Below are positions 2,055-6,421 of a DNA stretch of 9,826 nucleotides, one piece after another. The position numbers were made by a program, and so were the translations under genes. The first letter of the stretch is position 1. Each line of letters starts with the position of its first letter. The notes under the pieces were generated by a model that was not told where the DNA came from, made no database searches, and saw nothing but the letters and a program-made list of their open reading frames with translations. Origin of the DNA: a virus (lineage: Duplodnaviria > Heunggongvirae > Uroviricota > Caudoviricetes); the IMG/VR virus record IMGVR_UViG_2619619132_000009; one strand, 5' to 3'.

Positions 2055-4109
2055 ATGTCAGACTCCAAGTGGAAAATGCTCTCCGCCATGCCCGGAGAGT
2101 TTTCAGTCAAGGTTGCCGGTGGCACGGTGGCATTTATTGAAAGCCCTTTCCGCCCTTCGGGTAATAAAGGGGGGATCACCTTCGCAGACTGCGTGATCCG
2201 CTTCAGCACGAAAGAGCCATTATGGGTAATGCCGGTATCCGGTAATCCCAGTGCAGAAATCACCAGTTCAGGCGTGACTGGCATCATTCCAATCACATCT
2301 GACGTGGCCGGAACGCTCACGCCCTCCGACTGGAATGCACCGGATAACGCCGGGCCTTCCGGTAGCACGAATGGCAGCAGTTCAGAGCCGGAATATTACT
2401 TTGTTGTCATTCTCGCGGGTCAGTCAAATGGCATGGCCTACGGCGAGGGGCTGCCGTTACCGGATTCGTTTGACCGCCCGGACCCACGCATTAAGCAACT
2501 GGCACGCCGCAGTACGGTAACGCCCAACGGTACGTCGTGTACATACAACGACATCATTCCGGCAGACCACTGCCTGCATGATGTTCAGGATATGAGCGGG
2601 ATAAACCACCCGAAAGCTGATCTGGCAAAAGGCCAGTACGGGACTGTCGGTCAGGGGTTGCATATTGCCAAAAAACTGCTTCCCTATATCCCACAGAATG
2701 CCGGGATACTTCTGGTGCCCTGTTGTCGTGGCGGGTCAGCATTCACCACTGGAGCCGACGGCTCATTCAGTGAGGCCAGCGGTGCTTCCGCTGATTCTTC
2801 ACGCTGGGGGGCCGGTAAACCTCTGTATCAGGACCTGGTAAGCCGCACCAAAGTCGCGCTGGCGAAAAACCCGAAAAACAAACTTCTGGCTGTGGTCTGG
2901 ATGCAGGGAGAGGCAGACCTTGCCTCAGGAAGCCAGCAGCATAATAGTTTATTCACGGCCATGGTTCAGCAGTTCAGAACTGACCTGGCTCCGCTTGCTG
3001 CGCAGTGCGTGAGTGGAAATGCCACCACGGTGCCGTGGATTTGCGGTGATACCACGTATTACTGGAAAAACGCTGGCACCGATAAATATGAGGCAGTATA
3101 CGGTGGCTACAAAGGCAAGGAAGCACAGAAAATTTTCTTTGTACCGTTCCTGACGGATGAGAATGGACAGAGCACGCCAACGAATGCTCCGGCGGAAGAC
3201 CCGGATATTGTGGCTGTCGGGTATTACGGTGCAGCATCCCGAACCCAGGGCAGTTTTGTTTCGACACAGCGTGACAGCCATTTCAGCTCATGGGCACGCA
3301 GGGGCGTCATTTCAGACCGTCTGGCCTCAGCTATTATGCTCCATGCAGGGCGCACGGCTGAACTGATGCGCGGGCAGACCGTGACACCACCGGATGAGAA
3401 GCCGTCACCTGATACACCATCAAAACCGTCCACGCCACCCGCAGACACCACGACGATGAGTACGCTATTTGCTTACCGGGCATCTGAGTCTGAAGGACGG
3501 TTGACACCACAGGGTTGGGCTGCCGGAGGTGGCAAGGCTCAAATCGTGGATGATGCCGGAGCCAGCGGGGGTAAGGCAATGAAACTGACCAAGGAAACAG
3601 GAAGAGCCCCCTGGTACCTTGAGCATGATGCTGGTAATGGTGCGGACCTGCTGGGTAAAGGTGGTCTTGTCAGTTGTCGTTTTAAACTCGATGGCGCGCT
3701 TACGGCTAATCAGTACGCACTGGCGCTGTACTGGCCGGTTTCTGCCCTGCCGCAAGGGGTTACTCTGGAAGGAAATGCCGGTCATAACCTGCTGGCATCG
3801 TTCTACGTACAGAGCGATGCCACAGACCTTAACGTGATGTATCACAAAGGAAACACGGCGCAGAACACGAAGCTGGGGTCATTCGGCGCATTTAATAACG
3901 AATGGCATACGCTGGGCTTCCGTTTTGCCGGTAACAACAGTATTGAGGTGACGCCGGTCATTGATGGTAAGGACGGGACACCATTCATGCTGTCGCAGTC
4001 TCCGGTCGGCACGTTTACGGCAGACAAGTTGCGCGTGACCGATATCACTAAAAATGCGACTTACCCGGTACTGATTGACAGTATCGTGGTGGAAGTGAAT
4101 AACGCGTAA
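2055..4109 (+). CDS. Prophage NanS-p-like sialate O-acetylesterase (SGNH/SASA esterase) with N-terminal extension and C-terminal lectin-like domain
   Basis: 684 aa. The core YYFVVILAGQSNGMAYGEGLPLPD...PRIKQLARRSTVTP...GILLVPCCRGGSAFT...VWMQGEAD resembles recalled E. coli NanS/YjhS and prophage NanS-p proteins. A P/T/S-rich linker (PPDEKPSPDTPSKPSTPPADTTT) is followed by about 230 aa that look like a beta-sandwich carbohydrate-binding domain. Confidence 0.6.
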   Translation: MSDSKWKMLSAMPGEFSVKVAGGTVAFIESPFRPSGNKGGITFADCVIRFSTKEPLWVMPVSGNPSAEITSSGVTGIIPITSDVAGTLTPSDWNAPDNAGPSGSTNGSSSEPEYYFVVILAGQSNGMAYGEGLPLPDSFDRPDPRIKQLARRSTVTPNGTSCTYNDIIPADHCLHDVQDMSGINHPKADLAKGQYGTVGQGLHIAKKLLPYIPQNAGILLVPCCRGGSAFTTGADGSFSEASGASADSSRWGAGKPLYQDLVSRTKVALAKNPKNKLLAVVWMQGEADLASGSQQHNSLFTAMVQQFRTDLAPLAAQCVSGNATTVPWICGDTTYYWKNAGTDKYEAVYGGYKGKEAQKIFFVPFLTDENGQSTPTNAPAEDPDIVAVGYYGAASRTQGSFVSTQRDSHFSSWARRGVISDRLASAIMLHAGRTAELMRGQTVTPPDEKPSPDTPSKPSTPPADTTTMSTLFAYRASESEGRLTPQGWAAGGGKAQIVDDAGASGGKAMKLTKETGRAPWYLEHDAGNGADLLGKGGLVSCRFKLDGALTANQYALALYWPVSALPQGVTLEGNAGHNLLASFYVQSDATDLNVMYHKGNTAQNTKLGSFGAFNNEWHTLGFRFAGNNSIEVTPVIDGKDGTPFMLSQSPVGTFTADKLRVTDITKNATYPVLIDSIVVEVNNA

Positions 4110-4124
4110 GCAGGATAAAAAAAT

Positions 4125-4157
4125 GCCGCCGGTAAGGGAAAACAAGAAACCGGCGGC
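4125..4157 (-). terminator. GC-rich stem-loop flanked by A-runs on the plus strand (T-runs on the minus strand); terminator-like, orientation favours leftward transcripts
   Basis: 9-bp perfect stem GCCGCCGGT/ACCGGCGGC (4125-4133, 4149-4157), preceded by AAAAAAAT and followed by AAAAAG. Confidence 0.35.
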
Positions 4158-4253
4158 AAAAAGATCGTTATATCCAAAGCAAAAAATGCAGTGCACCTTT
4201 TTACCTAACAGATATTACCGGTGTCAACACCATGTCAATAATTGGGAGGGATA

Positions 4254-4436
4254 ATGACATTTTTACAGCTTATTTTATTGTATTTCTGCACGGCAGTATG
4301 TGCGTTATATCTGGTGAGTGGTGGTTATAAGGCCATCAGAAATTATGTTCGCCGCAAAATTGAGGACGCAGCAGCTGAAAAACTCAGTAAAACAGCGCAG
4401 GTAACTCCGCTCCCAAAAGACCCGACCCAGCCCTGA
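4254..4436 (+). CDS. Small hypothetical membrane protein (60 aa, one N-terminal hydrophobic helix)
   Basis: RBS GGGAGGG (4244-4250) then ATG at 4254. MTFLQLILLYFCTAVCALYLVSGGYKAIRNYVRRKIEDAAAEKL... The track's TTG at 4242 overlaps the RBS, so 4254 is preferred. Confidence 0.5.
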   Translation: MTFLQLILLYFCTAVCALYLVSGGYKAIRNYVRRKIEDAAAEKLSKTAQVTPLPKDPTQP

Positions 4437-4471
4437 TTGCAGGGCTTTATTCCCGCATAAGGAGGATATAC

Positions 4472-4726
4472 ATGCCAGAAATTAAAGGCACCGTCACTGA
4501 AGACCTGGTAAAACAGGCACTGTATTCCGGTGAAGTAAATAAGTTGCTGAAAGCGCAGGTCCGCAAGGATTTTGAGGCACAAATCGACACTTACGTTGAT
4601 GAAGTGCTGGCAAAACTTATTGGGCCAGCAGTTGCGGCCAGTGATGCTGATAATGAGCCGAAAACCGACGCGCAGCCAGAGCAACCAGACCCGGCTCAGC
4701 CCGGAACTGACAGTACCATGATGTAA
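4472..4726 (+). CDS. Small hypothetical protein (84 aa, acidic Pro-rich C-terminus)
   Basis: Strong RBS AAGGAGG with a 6-nt spacer before ATG 4472. No recognisable family. Confidence 0.55.
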   Translation: MPEIKGTVTEDLVKQALYSGEVNKLLKAQVRKDFEAQIDTYVDEVLAKLIGPAVAASDADNEPKTDAQPEQPDPAQPGTDSTMM

Positions 4727-4731
4727 CAATA

Positions 4732-4759
4732 CAAACCGGTGGTGTCCTCTGCCGGTTTG
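4732..4759 (+). terminator. Weak stem-loop after the 84-aa ORF
   Basis: CAAACCGG...CCGGTTTG 8-bp stem with a 12-nt loop immediately after the stop at 4724-4726; no clear U-tract. Confidence 0.3.
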
Positions 4760-4986
4760 ACACTAATGAAAACATCTTTGCCGCTATCCAGCCATATGTA
4801 ATCGCTGGATAGTATTTCGTATTCAGAAATATAGCTGCTTATGGAGCAGTCAATCCTGCTTCCCCATCCGGGCAGGCAAATGAACCGGTATCATTAGTCC
4901 GATTCACGCTTTTGTAGAATCGTTCCCAGAATGCTATACAGCTCATTAGCCTGTTGCTCCATCATTGAGACGGAGGCTATACGGTG

Positions 4987-4995
4987 CAAAGTGAT
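4987..4995. repeat. Left 9-bp target-site duplication of IS1 (CAAAGTGAT)
   Basis: Identical 9-mer directly abuts both IS1 ends (4987-4995 and 5764-5772). Confidence 0.85.
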
Positions 4996-5050
4996 GGTAA
5001 TGCTGCCAACTTACTGATTTAGTGTATGATGGTGATTTTAAGGTGCTTGC

Positions 5051-5326
5051 GTGGCTTCCATTTCCATCAGATGTCCTTCCTGCTCCGCTACTGAAGGCGT
5101 GGTGCGTAACGGCAAAAGTACTGCCGGATATCAGCGCTATCTCTGCTCTCATTGCCGTAAAACATGGCAACTACAGTTCACTTACACCGCCTCTCAGCCC
5201 GGTAAGCACCAGAAAATCATTGATATGGCCATGAATGGCGTCGGATGTCGCGCCAGTGCACGCATTATGGGCGTTGGCCTCAACACGGTTTTACGTCACT
5301 TAAAAAACTCAGGCCGCAGTCGGTAA
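5051..5326 (+). CDS. insA: IS1 InsA (zinc-finger/HTH transposition regulator)
   Basis: [43 protein letters not shown]...[14 protein letters not shown], 91 aa, GTG start. Confidence 0.9.
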
Positions 5327-5748
5327 CCTCGCGCATACAACCGGGCAGTGATGTGATTGTCTGCGCTGAAATGGACGAACAGTGGGGCTACGTCGGTGCT
5401 AAATCACGTCAGCGCTGGCTGTTTTACGCGTATGACAGGATACGGAGGACGGTTGTGGCGCACGTCTTCGGTGAACGCACTCTGGCCACACTGGAGCGTC
5501 TTCTGAGCCTGCTGTCGGCCTTTGAGGTCGTGGTATAGATGACGGATGGCTGGCCGCTGTATGAATCACGCCTGAAGGGAAAGCTGCACGTTATCAGCAA
5601 GCGTTACACTCAGCGCATTGAGCGACATAATCTGAATCTGAGACAACATCTGGCAAGGCTGGGACGGAAGTCACTGTCGTTCTCAAAATCGGTGGAGCTG
5701 CATGACAAGGTCATCGGGCATTATCTGAACATAAAACACTATCAGTAA
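5245..5748 (+). pseudogene. insB: IS1 insB frame interrupted by an in-frame amber codon
   Basis: The InsB frame reads ...LSAFEVVV then TAG at 5536-5538, then [69 protein letters not shown] in the same frame. Canonical IS1 as recalled has ...VVIW MTDGW here, implying TGG to TAG. Confidence 0.7.
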
Positions 5749-5763
5749 GTTGGAGTCATTACC

Positions 5764-5772
5764 CAAAGTGAT
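5764..5772. repeat. Right 9-bp target-site duplication of IS1 (CAAAGTGAT)
   Basis: Identical to 4987-4995. Confidence 0.85.
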
Positions 5773-6154
5773 TTCAGGAGGTGGCACACCTCCATCTTCT
5801 TGCTGTGGAGGAAAAACATAAGATTTAATAAAAAAGTTGAAGCATATGAACTCTCCCGCACTCGAACTGTATTTGCAGGCATCTGAATAATCGGAAAAAT
5901 AATCATTATAGATTTCCGCATTTTCAATCATTTTTCGATTTCTCGTCGTTACATGATTGTCCATAGCAGCCTCTTACGCTGGCAATTAACCAATTGACTT
6001 CTATAAATTAGTTGATTTGTTTGCTTTGCGGTATTCAAATGTACAATCATTCAGCACTTATGCGTTACAGCACCGTTTAAAATTAGTGATCAAACTCATA
6101 AATTTTCGCTAATGACATTTCGTGTTATTTGTTGTATCAATTAAATAAATCAAA

Positions 6155-6177
6155 TCGATCGTTTTTGTCGATCGATT
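6155..6177. promoter_or_regulatory. Perfect palindrome ATCGATCG-N7-CGATCGAT carrying two Dam (GATC) sites, upstream of com-mom; candidate methylation-sensitive operator
   Basis: 8-bp perfect inverted repeat with a 7-bp T-rich spacer. GATC at 6157-6160 and 6170-6173, with a third GATC at 6088-6091, all within about 135 bp upstream of the com ATG in an AT-rich divergent intergenic region. Confidence 0.45.
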
Positions 6178-6220
6178 GAGTGATAAAGATATCAACAACA
6201 AAGCAGGAGGTTATGCGGCC

Positions 6221-6421
6221 ATGTATCGAAACATACGGTGCCGACATTGTAACAAGCTACTGGCACGAGCCAGCTTCAGTTATCTGGAAGTTAAATGTCC
6301 GCGCTGTAAAACCCTCAATCAAATCACATCTCAGAGCGCCACAGAGCACCCCACATACACAAGGAAATCCTGTCGTGGGGAACAGAAAGCAAGTTACATC
6401 CCGTATCATCAGCACGCCTGA
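6221..6421 (+). CDS. com: Com-like zinc-ribbon translational activator (phage Mu Com family)
   Basis: [35 protein letters not shown]... has Cys at 7, 10, 26 and 29 (CxxC-N15-CxxC) and strong resemblance to recalled Mu Com (MKSIRCKNCNKLL...IRCPRCK). RBS AGGAGG lies 10 nt upstream; the 3' end overlaps the next gene. Confidence 0.75.

What the first reader, a model, noticed from the sequence alone, without database searches (positions are those of the whole stretch)
4894..5964. Reconstructable small gene divergent from com-mom, inactivated by IS1
Removing IS1 and one duplication copy restores a 97-aa leftward ORF (MDNHVTTRNRKMIENAEIYNDYFSDYSDACKYSSSAGEFICFNFFIKSYVFPPQQEDGGVPPPEITLHRIASVSMMEQQANELYSILGTILQKRESD) with a good RBS. 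It shares an AT-rich 256-bp divergent promoter region with com-mom. Its function is unknown; its position makes it a candidate partner or regulator of the modification module, and IS1 knocking it out may be selectively meaningful.
Basis: partly seen in the sequence, partly recalled or inferred. Interest (0 to 1): 0.45.

Follow-up and report, generated by a model that had tools for sequence, protein, structure and literature searches.

The report
IS1-split orphan gene beside com-mom
A small, real but uncharacterised gene of a Mu-like prophage has been cut in two by an IS1 element; it is a swappable cargo gene that happens to sit beside the com-mom DNA-modification genes and shows no sign of being their partner, so the finding is largely ordinary.

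Summary
A 768-bp IS1 (4996-5763) with a 9-bp target duplication splits a leftward ORF. The restored 824-bp site is 100% identical in 14 complete E. coli genomes, and the exact protein is on at least 1000 public contigs (E. coli, Shigella sonnei), always named 'hypothetical protein'.

The gene is real. dN/dS against a 79%-identical homologue is 0.34 (0.08 for residues 13-53), and the start codon and Shine-Dalgarno are conserved. No Pfam, NCBIfam, PADLOC or PDB match was found, and the AlphaFold models were poor.

The proposed link to com-mom is not supported. The ORF lies in a roughly 580-bp AT-rich cassette (4756-6111 without IS1). In 214 complete genomes a cassette with an unrelated 154-aa gene occupies this slot, upstream of the conserved com control block that about 230 complete genomes share. 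Only 18 genomes carry this ORF, and phage Mu has nothing there.

Remote homologues (29-35% identity) sit in prophages with no com or mom in the flanks examined. There they are the first gene of three-gene cassettes, in Yersinia in the cI-proximal slot that rexAB holds in lambda.

The best reading is an autonomous prophage cargo gene knocked out by an incidental IS1 hit. Its function is still unknown.

The parts
5764..5964 (-). 5' part of the small gene, codons 1-67 (M1..L67). In the window it reads on into IS1, giving a 93-aa fusion ORF (5683-5964).
   Evidence: the exact 93-aa fusion protein is EFC1848337.1
4894..4986 (-). 3' part of the small gene, codons 68-97 (HRIASVSMMEQQANELYSILGTILQKRESD) plus the TAA stop. 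It encodes the conserved C-terminal helix.
   Evidence: helix 63-96 in both AF2 models, at low confidence
4996..5763 (+). IS1 element, 768 bp. insA is at 5051-5326. The insB frame (5245-5748) carries an internal TAG at 5536-5538.
   Evidence: PF03400 DDE_Tnp_IS1 on the same copy in L012
4987..4995 (.). Left copy of the 9-bp target-site duplication CAAAGTGAT.
5764..5772 (.). Right copy of the 9-bp target-site duplication CAAAGTGAT.
5970..5975 (-). Shine-Dalgarno AAGAGG, 5 nt upstream of the M1 ATG. It is conserved as GAGAGG in strain CI5.
5965..6111 (-). Cassette-specific 5' flank of the small gene, 147 bp. It is 88% identical to strain CI5 and absent from O157-type prophages. It presumably holds the gene's own promoter, but no strong sigma-70 match was found.
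4756..4893 (-). Cassette-specific 3' flank. It contains a terminator-like hairpin at 4849-4835 and a 9-bp-stem hairpin, and is only 64% identical to CI5.
6112..6220 (+). Conserved com-mom control region. GATC sites at 6157 and 6170 align with the GATC cluster upstream of the Mu mom promoter. The com Shine-Dalgarno AGGAGG is at 6205-6210. This block is shared at 93-95% identity with Mu-like prophages that lack the small gene.
6221..6421 (+). com (66 aa, PF10122 Zn_ribbon_Com).
6375..7112 (+). mom (245 aa, PF25680, E = 7.8e-78). It overlaps the 3' end of com. The prophage's right end is near 7240.
4472..4726 (+). DUF826 gene, convergent with the small gene. Its terminator hairpin (about 4736-4757) marks the left edge of the variable cassette.

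Best explanation
The feature is a genuine 97-codon gene of an E. coli/Shigella Mu-like prophage, split between codons 67 and 68 by an IS1 element.

Shown:
- The gene belongs to a tiny orphan family.
- It is under purifying selection.
- It sits in a self-contained, AT-rich cassette of about 580 bp. The cassette comprises a 147-bp 5' flank, the ORF and a 138-bp 3' flank with hairpins.
- The cassette occupies a dimorphic slot between the DUF826 gene's terminator and the conserved 109-bp com-mom control region.
- The alternative allele of the slot carries an unrelated 154-aa leftward gene, upstream of a com-mom module about 95% identical to the window's.

Inferred:
- The gene is an autonomous prophage cargo ('moron'-type) gene with its own expression signals. 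It is not a component or regulator of com-mom.
- Its product is a small, acidic (pI 4.7), soluble protein with an aromatic-rich conserved core (residues 13-53) and a C-terminal amphipathic helix. It most likely acts by binding another protein in phage-phage or phage-host conflict (exclusion, defence or counter-defence). The reason for this guess is location: its only remote homologues head three-gene cassettes in classical lysogen-expressed cargo positions. These are directly downstream of the cI repressor (where lambda carries rexAB) and next to a prophage end beside a retron reverse transcriptase.
- The IS1 insertion is a null mutation. It removes the conserved 30-residue C-terminal helix and replaces it with 26 IS1-encoded residues.
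- The insertion is best explained as an incidental hit of IS1 in AT-rich DNA in one rare lineage, not as a selected event.
For: Reconstruction and the empty site.

Coding constraint: against the strain CI5 homologue, dN/dS is 0.34 over 95 codons (14 of 35 changes synonymous where 20% are expected; binomial P = 0.005). It is 0.076 for codons 13-53. The other five frames give 0.6-1.2 and contain 3-9 stops. The ATG and SD are conserved, while M12 is not.

Co-divergence: the whole 4001-7244 region aligns to CI5 at 89% identity, so the gene has co-diverged with the prophage backbone.

Cassette boundaries: homology to the O157:H7 Mu-like prophage stops at 4755 and resumes at 6112.

Slot dimorphism: 18 complete genomes carry this cassette and 214 carry the 154-aa alternative. 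mom at 90% identity or more is in 226 genomes. Mu has gin followed directly by Pmom.

Composition: the ORF is 40% G+C and the spacer 34%, against 51% for the window.

Remote homologues: P0015 (Yersinia enterocolitica) has library-wide E = 6.4e-4, with 31% identity over 80 collinear residues. The phage vB_EcoS-733R5 homologue is found by both queries over the same residues.

Rarity of the IS1 allele: 7 contigs with the same host flank in those that extend far enough, the same split insB in the contig that extends through the element, and none of 5426 complete genomes.
Against: - No promoter was demonstrated. The best minus-strand sigma-70-like match (TTGCCA-18-GACAAT, 5985-5956) overlaps the start codon and is not conserved in CI5.
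- The 5' flank is unusually well conserved (88%, against 64% for the 3' flank). It could therefore hold regulatory sites shared with com-mom.
- In the Mu-like prophage the gene is solo, without the B and C partners seen in Yersinia and phage 733R5. Inferring function from those cassettes is therefore weak.
- No fold or family match exists. The 'protein binder in conflict systems' step is inference only.
- At least two independent IS1 insertions plus frameshifted alleles exist. Selection for loss cannot be excluded.
Confidence: 0.6

Rival explanations
1. The small protein is a dedicated partner or regulator of com-mom, expressed from a divergent promoter in the shared spacer. This would be analogous to the leftward momP2 promoter of phage Mu, and IS1 removed that control.
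For: In all 18 complete genomes, and in CI5, the gene is immediately upstream of and divergent from com. [quoted passage not shown] The GATC cluster of the Mu control region is conserved in the window. The ORF-proximal spacer is 88% conserved.
Against: About 230 complete genomes share the com control block at 92-93% identity, and 214 of them carry an unrelated gene in the slot. Mu has none. In strain 2013C-4081 the same com block precedes a Dcm-type methyltransferase, with a frameshifted leftward pseudogene in that slot instead of this gene. Homologues in Yersinia and 733R5 phages have no com or mom in the flanks examined. Homology between prophage types breaks at 6112, so the ORF brings its own 147-bp upstream DNA. 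There is no DNA-binding domain signature.
Confidence: 0.1
2. The solo gene is an orphan copy of the swappable first component of X-B-C three-gene cassettes. The Mu-like phage keeps it as an immunity or counter-defence factor that neutralises B-C-type systems carried by competing prophages.
For: Homologues head tightly overlapping three-gene cassettes in two prophage lineages. In a third phage, B and C are kept but gene 1 is replaced by an unrelated Zn-ribbon protein, so gene 1 is modular. The solo gene lies next to mom, which is itself an anti-restriction function. It has stayed intact and under constraint, even in the heavily decayed remnant in strain JKHS016.
Against: B and C have no known function: no Pfam, NCBIfam, PADLOC or PDB match. 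There is no evidence that the cassette is a defence system at all. Identity between the solo gene and cassette copies is only 29-31%. No interaction data exist.
Confidence: 0.15
3. The IS1 insertion, and other disruptions of this gene, were selected because the product is costly or harmful to the host or prophage.
For: Two independent IS1 insertions occur in a 294-bp gene, after codon 67 in the window and after codon 37 in L030, by different IS1 isoforms. Frameshifted or otherwise truncated alleles also exist: P0012, P0013, P0142, P0145.
Against: The intact protein is on at least 1000 contigs, while each disrupted form is on 1-9 contigs. No complete genome carries the window's junction. The cassette is the most AT-rich local DNA. 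From general knowledge of the element, IS1 prefers AT-rich targets. Prophage remnants accumulate such lesions neutrally; many neighbouring genes are pseudogenes in JKHS016.
Confidence: 0.1
4. The ORF is not a functional gene, only a chance open frame in AT-rich spacer DNA.
For: No family, fold or domain match. PGAP annotates a different start. Structure-prediction confidence is low.
Against: There is a frame-specific excess of synonymous change. The length and register are conserved across three lineages at 26-31% identity. The SD and ATG are conserved.
Confidence: 0.05

Closest known systems
Phage 'morons' (autonomous cargo genes inserted between conserved phage genes, as defined for lambdoid phages such as HK97 and lambda; from general knowledge)
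   Same: The gene is present in some prophages and replaced in closely related ones. It has lower G+C than its surroundings. It carries its own flanking non-coding DNA, including a terminator-like hairpin.
   Different: No convincing promoter was found and expression in the lysogen is untested. The slot is never empty in the E. coli prophages examined; it holds one of two alternative leftward genes.
Lysogen-expressed exclusion or defence genes in the cI-proximal slot of lambdoid phages (lambda rexA-rexB; from general knowledge)
   Same: The Yersinia homologues lie directly downstream of, and co-oriented with, the S24-peptidase cI repressor, before the N/PL region. They form compact AT-rich cassettes.
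   Different: There is no sequence similarity to RexA/RexB or to any PADLOC model. All three cassette proteins are small and soluble, with no membrane protein like RexB. The window's copy is solo and in a Mu-like prophage, not a lambdoid one.
Divergent momP1/momP2 promoters of phage Mu (Balke et al. 1992 and Sun & Hattman 1998, as summarised in PMC4287176)
   Same: Leftward transcription arising next to the mom promoter is an established feature of Mu. The GATC cluster of that control region is conserved here.
   Different: In Mu no gene lies leftward of Pmom other than the 3' end of gin. Here the leftward gene starts 148 bp beyond the conserved control block and brings its own upstream DNA. 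The region downstream of the GATC sites, which contains the C-binding site in Mu, is not conserved and is about 26 bp shorter.
IS1 insertional inactivation
   Same: It has the hallmarks I recall for IS1 (768 bp, imperfect 23-bp inverted repeats, 9-bp target duplication), plus insA/insB' ORFs and insertion into AT-rich DNA.
   Different: This copy has a premature TAG in the insB frame, where from memory the canonical InsB has Trp. It may therefore be non-autonomous. This was not followed up.
DUF3467 (PF11950) small proteins
   Same: There is a superficial motif resemblance that I recalled: an EF-x-hydrophobic-x-F strand followed by a C-terminal helix in a protein of about 100 aa.
   Different: Tested and not met. 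There is no Pfam hit even at E <= 10. hhalign of the family alignment against 25 DUF3467 proteins gives probability 0.4% and aligns unrelated segments.

Membership tests
IS1 insertion sequence | Length of about 768 bp with imperfect terminal inverted repeats of about 23 bp | tested here: met
   4996-5763 is 768 bp; the inverted repeats match at 20 of 23 positions
IS1 insertion sequence | 9-bp target-site duplication | tested here: met
   CAAAGTGAT on both sides. The empty site with a single copy is found at 100% identity in 14 genomes
IS1 insertion sequence | insA and insB' reading frames encoding an IS1-type DDE transposase | tested here: met
   insA is 91 aa. The insB frame is present but interrupted by TAG at 5536-5538. 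PF03400 is reported on the same copy in L012
Phage moron / autonomous cargo cassette | Present in some members of a phage group and absent or replaced in close relatives, with sharp homology breakpoints | tested here: met
   Breakpoints at 4755 and 6112 against the O157 prophage. 18 genomes carry this cassette and 214 the alternative
Phage moron / autonomous cargo cassette | Nucleotide composition distinct from the flanking phage genes | tested here: met
   Cassette 36-44% G+C, against 51% to its left
Phage moron / autonomous cargo cassette | Own promoter and terminator | tested here: inconclusive
   Terminator-like hairpin at 4849-4835. Only weak, non-conserved promoter-like matches
Phage moron / autonomous cargo cassette | Expressed from the repressed prophage | not testable with these tools
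   Needs RNA-seq, 5'-RACE or proteomics of a lysogen carrying the intact allele
com-mom modification module (as a component) | Co-occurs with com-mom across related elements | tested here: not met
   mom is in 226 complete genomes and the ORF in 18. Mu lacks it. Remote homologues lack com-mom in the flanks examined
com-mom modification module (as a component) | Lies within the conserved module boundaries | tested here: not met
   The conserved block starts at 6112; the ORF and its 147-bp leader lie outside it
com-mom modification module (as a component) | Affects mom expression or DNA modification | not testable with these tools
   Needs reporter or modification assays
Known anti-phage defence systems (PADLOC-DB v2) | Significant match to a defence-system protein model | tested here: not met
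   No hits for the ORF, its Yersinia homologue or the partner proteins B and C
DUF3467 (PF11950) | Profile-level sequence similarity | tested here: not met
   No hmmscan hit; hhalign probability 0.4%

The most novel reading that the evidence does not exclude
The 97-aa protein is the modular first component of a previously undescribed three-gene prophage conflict system, X-B-C. This system is found in the cI-proximal (rexAB-type) slot of Yersinia lambdoid phages and next to a retron in an E. coli prophage. The Mu-like prophage would carry a solo copy beside mom as a second counter-defence or immunity factor. The slot upstream of com would then be a small anti-defence hotspot with two alternative occupants.
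Probability: 0.12. Interest if true: 0.55.

Novelty: new member of a known kind. Interest (0 to 1): 0.2.

Why it matters
As it stands this matters little. It is an IS1 hit in an uncharacterised prophage cargo gene that is already in the databases as a 'hypothetical protein'.

The useful by-products are as follows.
(1) The 97-aa reading from M1 is better supported than the 86-aa PGAP call.
(2) The slot between DUF826 and com in E. coli Mu-like prophages is a clean two-allele cargo slot, which makes it a convenient place to look for phage conflict genes.
(3) The protein links to a small set of three-gene cassettes sitting where lambda keeps rexAB. These are cheap to test for phage exclusion.

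If such a function were found, the solo copy beside mom would become interesting as a possible counter-defence gene.

Tried and rejected
- **Family scans of the 97-aa protein.** Pfam, NCBIfam and PADLOC gave nothing, and PHROGs gave only phrog_7175 at E = 0.26.
- **Word-indexed search of 5.8 billion proteins.** This found 14 clusters, whose named members are E. coli or Shigella. All are 79% identical or more, or are truncated or fusion forms of the same gene.
- **Exhaustive HMMER profile search of 1.84 billion representatives.** This added one protein, P0015. Searching again with P0015 returned only itself.
- **Structure.** AlphaFold2 with 6- and 7-sequence alignments gave pLDDT 52.8 and 57.7, and the two models disagree on the N-terminal half. 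Foldseek against BFVD and PDB gave no hit at E <= 0.001. I treat these as uninformative.
- **PDB sequence search with the family profile.** Best E = 0.41.
- **DUF3467 resemblance (recalled from memory).** Rejected by hhalign.
- **YafO resemblance of partner protein C (recalled from memory).** BLASTP gave E = 2, so rejected.
- **Relatedness of the two Zn-ribbon 'alternatives'** (the O157 154-aa protein and the Yersinia 106-aa protein). BLASTP gave E = 2, so they are not related.
- **Homologues of partners B and C in the E. coli Mu-like prophages.** None found by tblastn.
- **Rfam scan of the window.** No RNA family.
- **Wider collections.** The scan of GTDB representative genomes with the family alignment found nothing. 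The IMG/VR scan found only near-identical copies plus one 29% hit. Plasmids gave no match.
- **Promoters.** Scans found no convincing promoter for the ORF.
- **Literature.** Searching the protein accessions returned no paper.
Full report
**1. What is in the sequence**

The window carries the right end of a Mu-like prophage. In order it contains:
- tail-fibre fragments;
- a Gin/Pin-type invertase (1397-1969);
- a DUF6645/SASA-esterase protein (2055-4109);
- DUF1378 (4242-4436);
- DUF826 (4472-4726);
- the feature in question;
- com (6221-6421, PF10122);
- mom (6375-7112, PF25680, E = 7.8e-78).

Homology to other Mu-like prophages ends near 7240. There the DNA abuts an N-terminally truncated AIDA/Ag43-type autotransporter gene.

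Between DUF826 and com lies a 768-bp IS1 (4996-5763). It has 23-bp inverted repeats matching at 20 of 23 positions. It is flanked by a perfect 9-bp duplication, CAAAGTGAT.

Deleting IS1 and one repeat copy gives a minus-strand ORF, from ATG 5964-5962 to TAA 4896-4894. The insertion falls between codons 67 and 68. In the window the 5' part reads into IS1 as a 93-aa fusion ORF.

**2. The reconstruction is a real allele**

The IS1-free 824-bp sequence, from the DUF826 3' end into com, is 100% identical in 14 complete E. coli genomes. It is 96.7-99.9% identical in three more and 83% identical in strain CI5. The exact 97-aa protein (P0140, UniRef A0A656B4I2) is recorded on at least 1000 contigs from E. 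coli and Shigella sonnei.

The IS1-fusion protein was found on 7 contigs. Those that extend far enough show the same truncated autotransporter flank, and the contig that extends through the element shows the same split insB, so this looks like one insertion event in one lineage. No complete E. coli genome among 5426 carries this junction.

**3. It is a real gene**

I compared the restored ORF with the CI5 homologue (WP_046201603.1, 100 aa, 79% identical).
- dN/dS is 0.34 over 95 codons and 0.076 for codons 13-53.
- The other five frames give 0.6-1.2 and contain 3-9 stops.
- The excess of synonymous change is unlikely by chance (binomial P = 0.005 overall, 0.003 for the core).

PGAP starts the gene at M12 (86 aa) in the window's lineage. 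CI5 has Thr at that position, and only M1 with its Shine-Dalgarno is conserved. The 97-aa reading is therefore the better one.

The whole 4001-7244 region aligns to CI5 at 89% identity. The gene has thus co-diverged with its prophage and was not acquired recently.

The product is acidic (pI 4.7) and soluble. It has a variable N-terminal dozen residues, an almost invariant aromatic-rich core (residues 13-53), a proline-rich linker and a C-terminal amphipathic helix.

**4. What it is related to**

There is no Pfam, NCBIfam or PADLOC match, and only a non-significant PHROG hit. A search of 5.8 billion proteins found only versions of the same gene, and every cluster that carries an organism name is E. 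coli or Shigella.

An exhaustive profile search of 1.84 billion cluster representatives added one protein, P0015, from Yersinia enterocolitica. It is also 97 aa and collinear, with 31% identity over 80 residues (library-wide E = 6.4e-4). tblastn against phage genomes added a third lineage, in Escherichia phage vB_EcoS-733R5 and its near-twin vB_EcoS-716R3. Both queries found it over the same residues.

AlphaFold2 models were poor (pLDDT 53 and 58), and fold searches returned nothing significant. A resemblance to DUF3467 that I recalled from memory was tested with real DUF3467 sequences and rejected (hhalign probability 0.4%).

**5. Is it a partner of com-mom?**

The evidence says no, for four reasons.

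(a) *The spacer is composite.* Alignment to the O157:H7 Mu-like prophage shows homology stopping at 4755, just after the DUF826 terminator, and resuming at 6112. Only 6112-6220 belongs to the com-mom module. That block includes the two GATC sites that align with the GATC cluster upstream of Mu's mom promoter. The ORF brings its own 147-bp leader and 138-bp trailer.

(b) *The slot is dimorphic.* The com control block is shared at 92-93% identity by about 230 complete E. coli genomes, and mom at 90% or more by 226. Among complete E. coli genomes, 18 have this cassette. Another 214 have a different cassette with an unrelated 154-aa leftward protein that carries a C-terminal CxxC...CxxC motif. In the O157 prophage examined, the block from 6112 through com and mom is 94.7% identical to the window's.

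(c) *Other arrangements lack the gene.* Phage Mu has nothing between gin and Pmom. In strain 2013C-4081 the same com block precedes a Dcm-type methyltransferase, with a frameshifted leftward pseudogene in the slot. This agrees with the published observation that Mu-like prophages carry an unrelated methyltransferase gene at the position mom occupies in Mu (PMC3299994 abstract).

(d) *Remote homologues are not near com or mom*.

Mu's mom control region does contain a leftward promoter, momP2, which RNA polymerase occupies when the C activator is absent (PMC4287176). Leftward transcription from this neighbourhood is therefore not far-fetched. The ORF-proximal spacer is also unusually conserved: 88%, against 64% for the 3' flank. 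I could not find a convincing sigma-70 promoter for the ORF. The best match overlaps the start codon and is not conserved in CI5.

**6. Context of the remote homologues**

In Yersinia enterocolitica lambdoid prophages the homologue lies downstream of, and co-oriented with, the S24-type cI repressor and before the N gene. This is the position of rexAB in lambda. It is the first gene of a tightly packed three-gene cassette (A 97 aa, B 95 aa, C 123 aa). The B and C genes overlap by 4 bp, the cassette has a 480-bp AT-rich leader and 37% G+C, and a clear terminator follows C.

In one contig the same cassette sits beside a serine recombinase without a cI gene, so it moves as a unit.

In phage 733R5 the A-B-C cassette lies next to a yfdC/argW fragment and near a retron-type reverse transcriptase.

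In Yersinia phage vB_YenM_30.14, B and C are conserved in the same cI-proximal slot. Gene 1, however, is an unrelated 106-aa Zn-ribbon protein, so the first gene is swappable.

None of A, B or C matches a known family, defence model or solved structure. The Mu-like prophages contain no B or C homologue.

These positions are classical lysogen-expressed cargo sites. That is the only, and indirect, basis for proposing a role in phage-phage or phage-host conflict.

**7. The IS1 insertion**

The insertion removes the conserved C-terminal 30 residues, so it is almost certainly a null allele. It is rare (section 2).

A second, independent IS1 insertion exists in the same gene. It lies after codon 37 and involves a different IS1 isoform in the same orientation. 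It is on a metagenome contig (L030). Frameshifted or otherwise truncated alleles also occur.

The cassette is the most AT-rich DNA in the neighbourhood, and from general knowledge IS1 prefers such targets. Prophage remnants decay, and many neighbouring genes are pseudogenes in JKHS016. Incidental inactivation is therefore the economical explanation. Selection for loss is not excluded, but it has no positive support.

The IS1 copy itself has a TAG in the insB frame (5536-5538), at a position where I recall Trp in the canonical InsB. It may therefore be defective.

**8. Verdict**

The feature is an IS1-inactivated member of a tiny orphan family of prophage cargo genes, sitting in a two-allele slot of E. 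coli Mu-like prophages. The intact gene is already in the databases as a hypothetical protein, and insertional inactivation by IS1 is routine.

The most novel surviving reading is a modular component of an undescribed X-B-C prophage system, retained solo beside mom as a counter-defence factor. It is possible but rests only on gene neighbourhood.

Noticed in passing
L003-L008 8001-8951; L018 1347-2277; L031 3376-4375: Three-gene, tightly overlapping, AT-rich cassettes (X-B-C) with no known family. In Yersinia lambdoid phages they lie directly downstream of the cI repressor, where lambda has rexAB. In an E. coli prophage the cassette lies beside a retron reverse transcriptase. B and C are conserved, while gene 1 is either the 97-aa family or an unrelated Zn-ribbon protein. 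This is a candidate uncharacterised prophage conflict system.
   Followed up: partly
window 4756-6111 versus L011 4254-4732: The slot between DUF826 and com in E. coli Mu-like prophages has two alternative cassettes with sharp breakpoints. The 97-aa gene is in 18 complete genomes. An unrelated 154-aa leftward protein with a C-terminal CxxC...CxxC motif is in 214.
   Followed up: yes
L009 5096-6302 (E. coli 2013C-4081): The same com gene and control block (93% identical) is followed by a Dcm-type DNA cytosine methyltransferase instead of mom. Com-dependent control appears to be reused for a different DNA-modification gene.
   Followed up: no
window 5536-5538: The IS1 copy has a TAG stop inside the insB frame (...[13 protein letters not shown]...), at a position where I recall Trp in the canonical InsB. 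The same split is seen in L012. The element may be non-autonomous.
   Followed up: no
L030 1279-1525: A second, independent IS1 insertion in the same small gene. It lies after codon 37, involves a different IS1 isoform and has the same orientation.
   Followed up: yes
window 7240-9200: The prophage's right end abuts an autotransporter ORF (AIDA, autochaperone and beta-barrel domains) that lacks its N-terminal part. The Mu-like prophage apparently inserted into an Ag43/AIDA-type adhesin gene. Other genomes have the same prophage type at different loci: in xdhA in CI5, next to prpE in O157, and in a different island, beside JAB-domain and antirestriction pseudogenes, in JKHS016.
   Followed up: partly
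window 6112-6220 versus Mu (L010 3650-3770): The GATC cluster of Mu's mom control region is conserved (two of three sites). The segment that holds the C-activator site in Mu is not conserved and is about 26 bp shorter. A small palindrome, TGATAAAGATATCA (about 6181-6194), sits in its place, and this segment differs again in CI5.
   Followed up: no
window 2055-4109: The 684-aa cargo protein combines a sialate-O-acetylesterase-type SASA domain (PF03629) with DUF6645. It may be a surface-glycan deacetylase linked to the tail-fibre region.
   Followed up: no
NZ_AP022815.1 (JE86-ST05): This genome holds up to three places matching the cassette/com-mom region, one with a frameshifted copy of the small gene (P0013). 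This is consistent with several copies of the transposable prophage.
   Followed up: no
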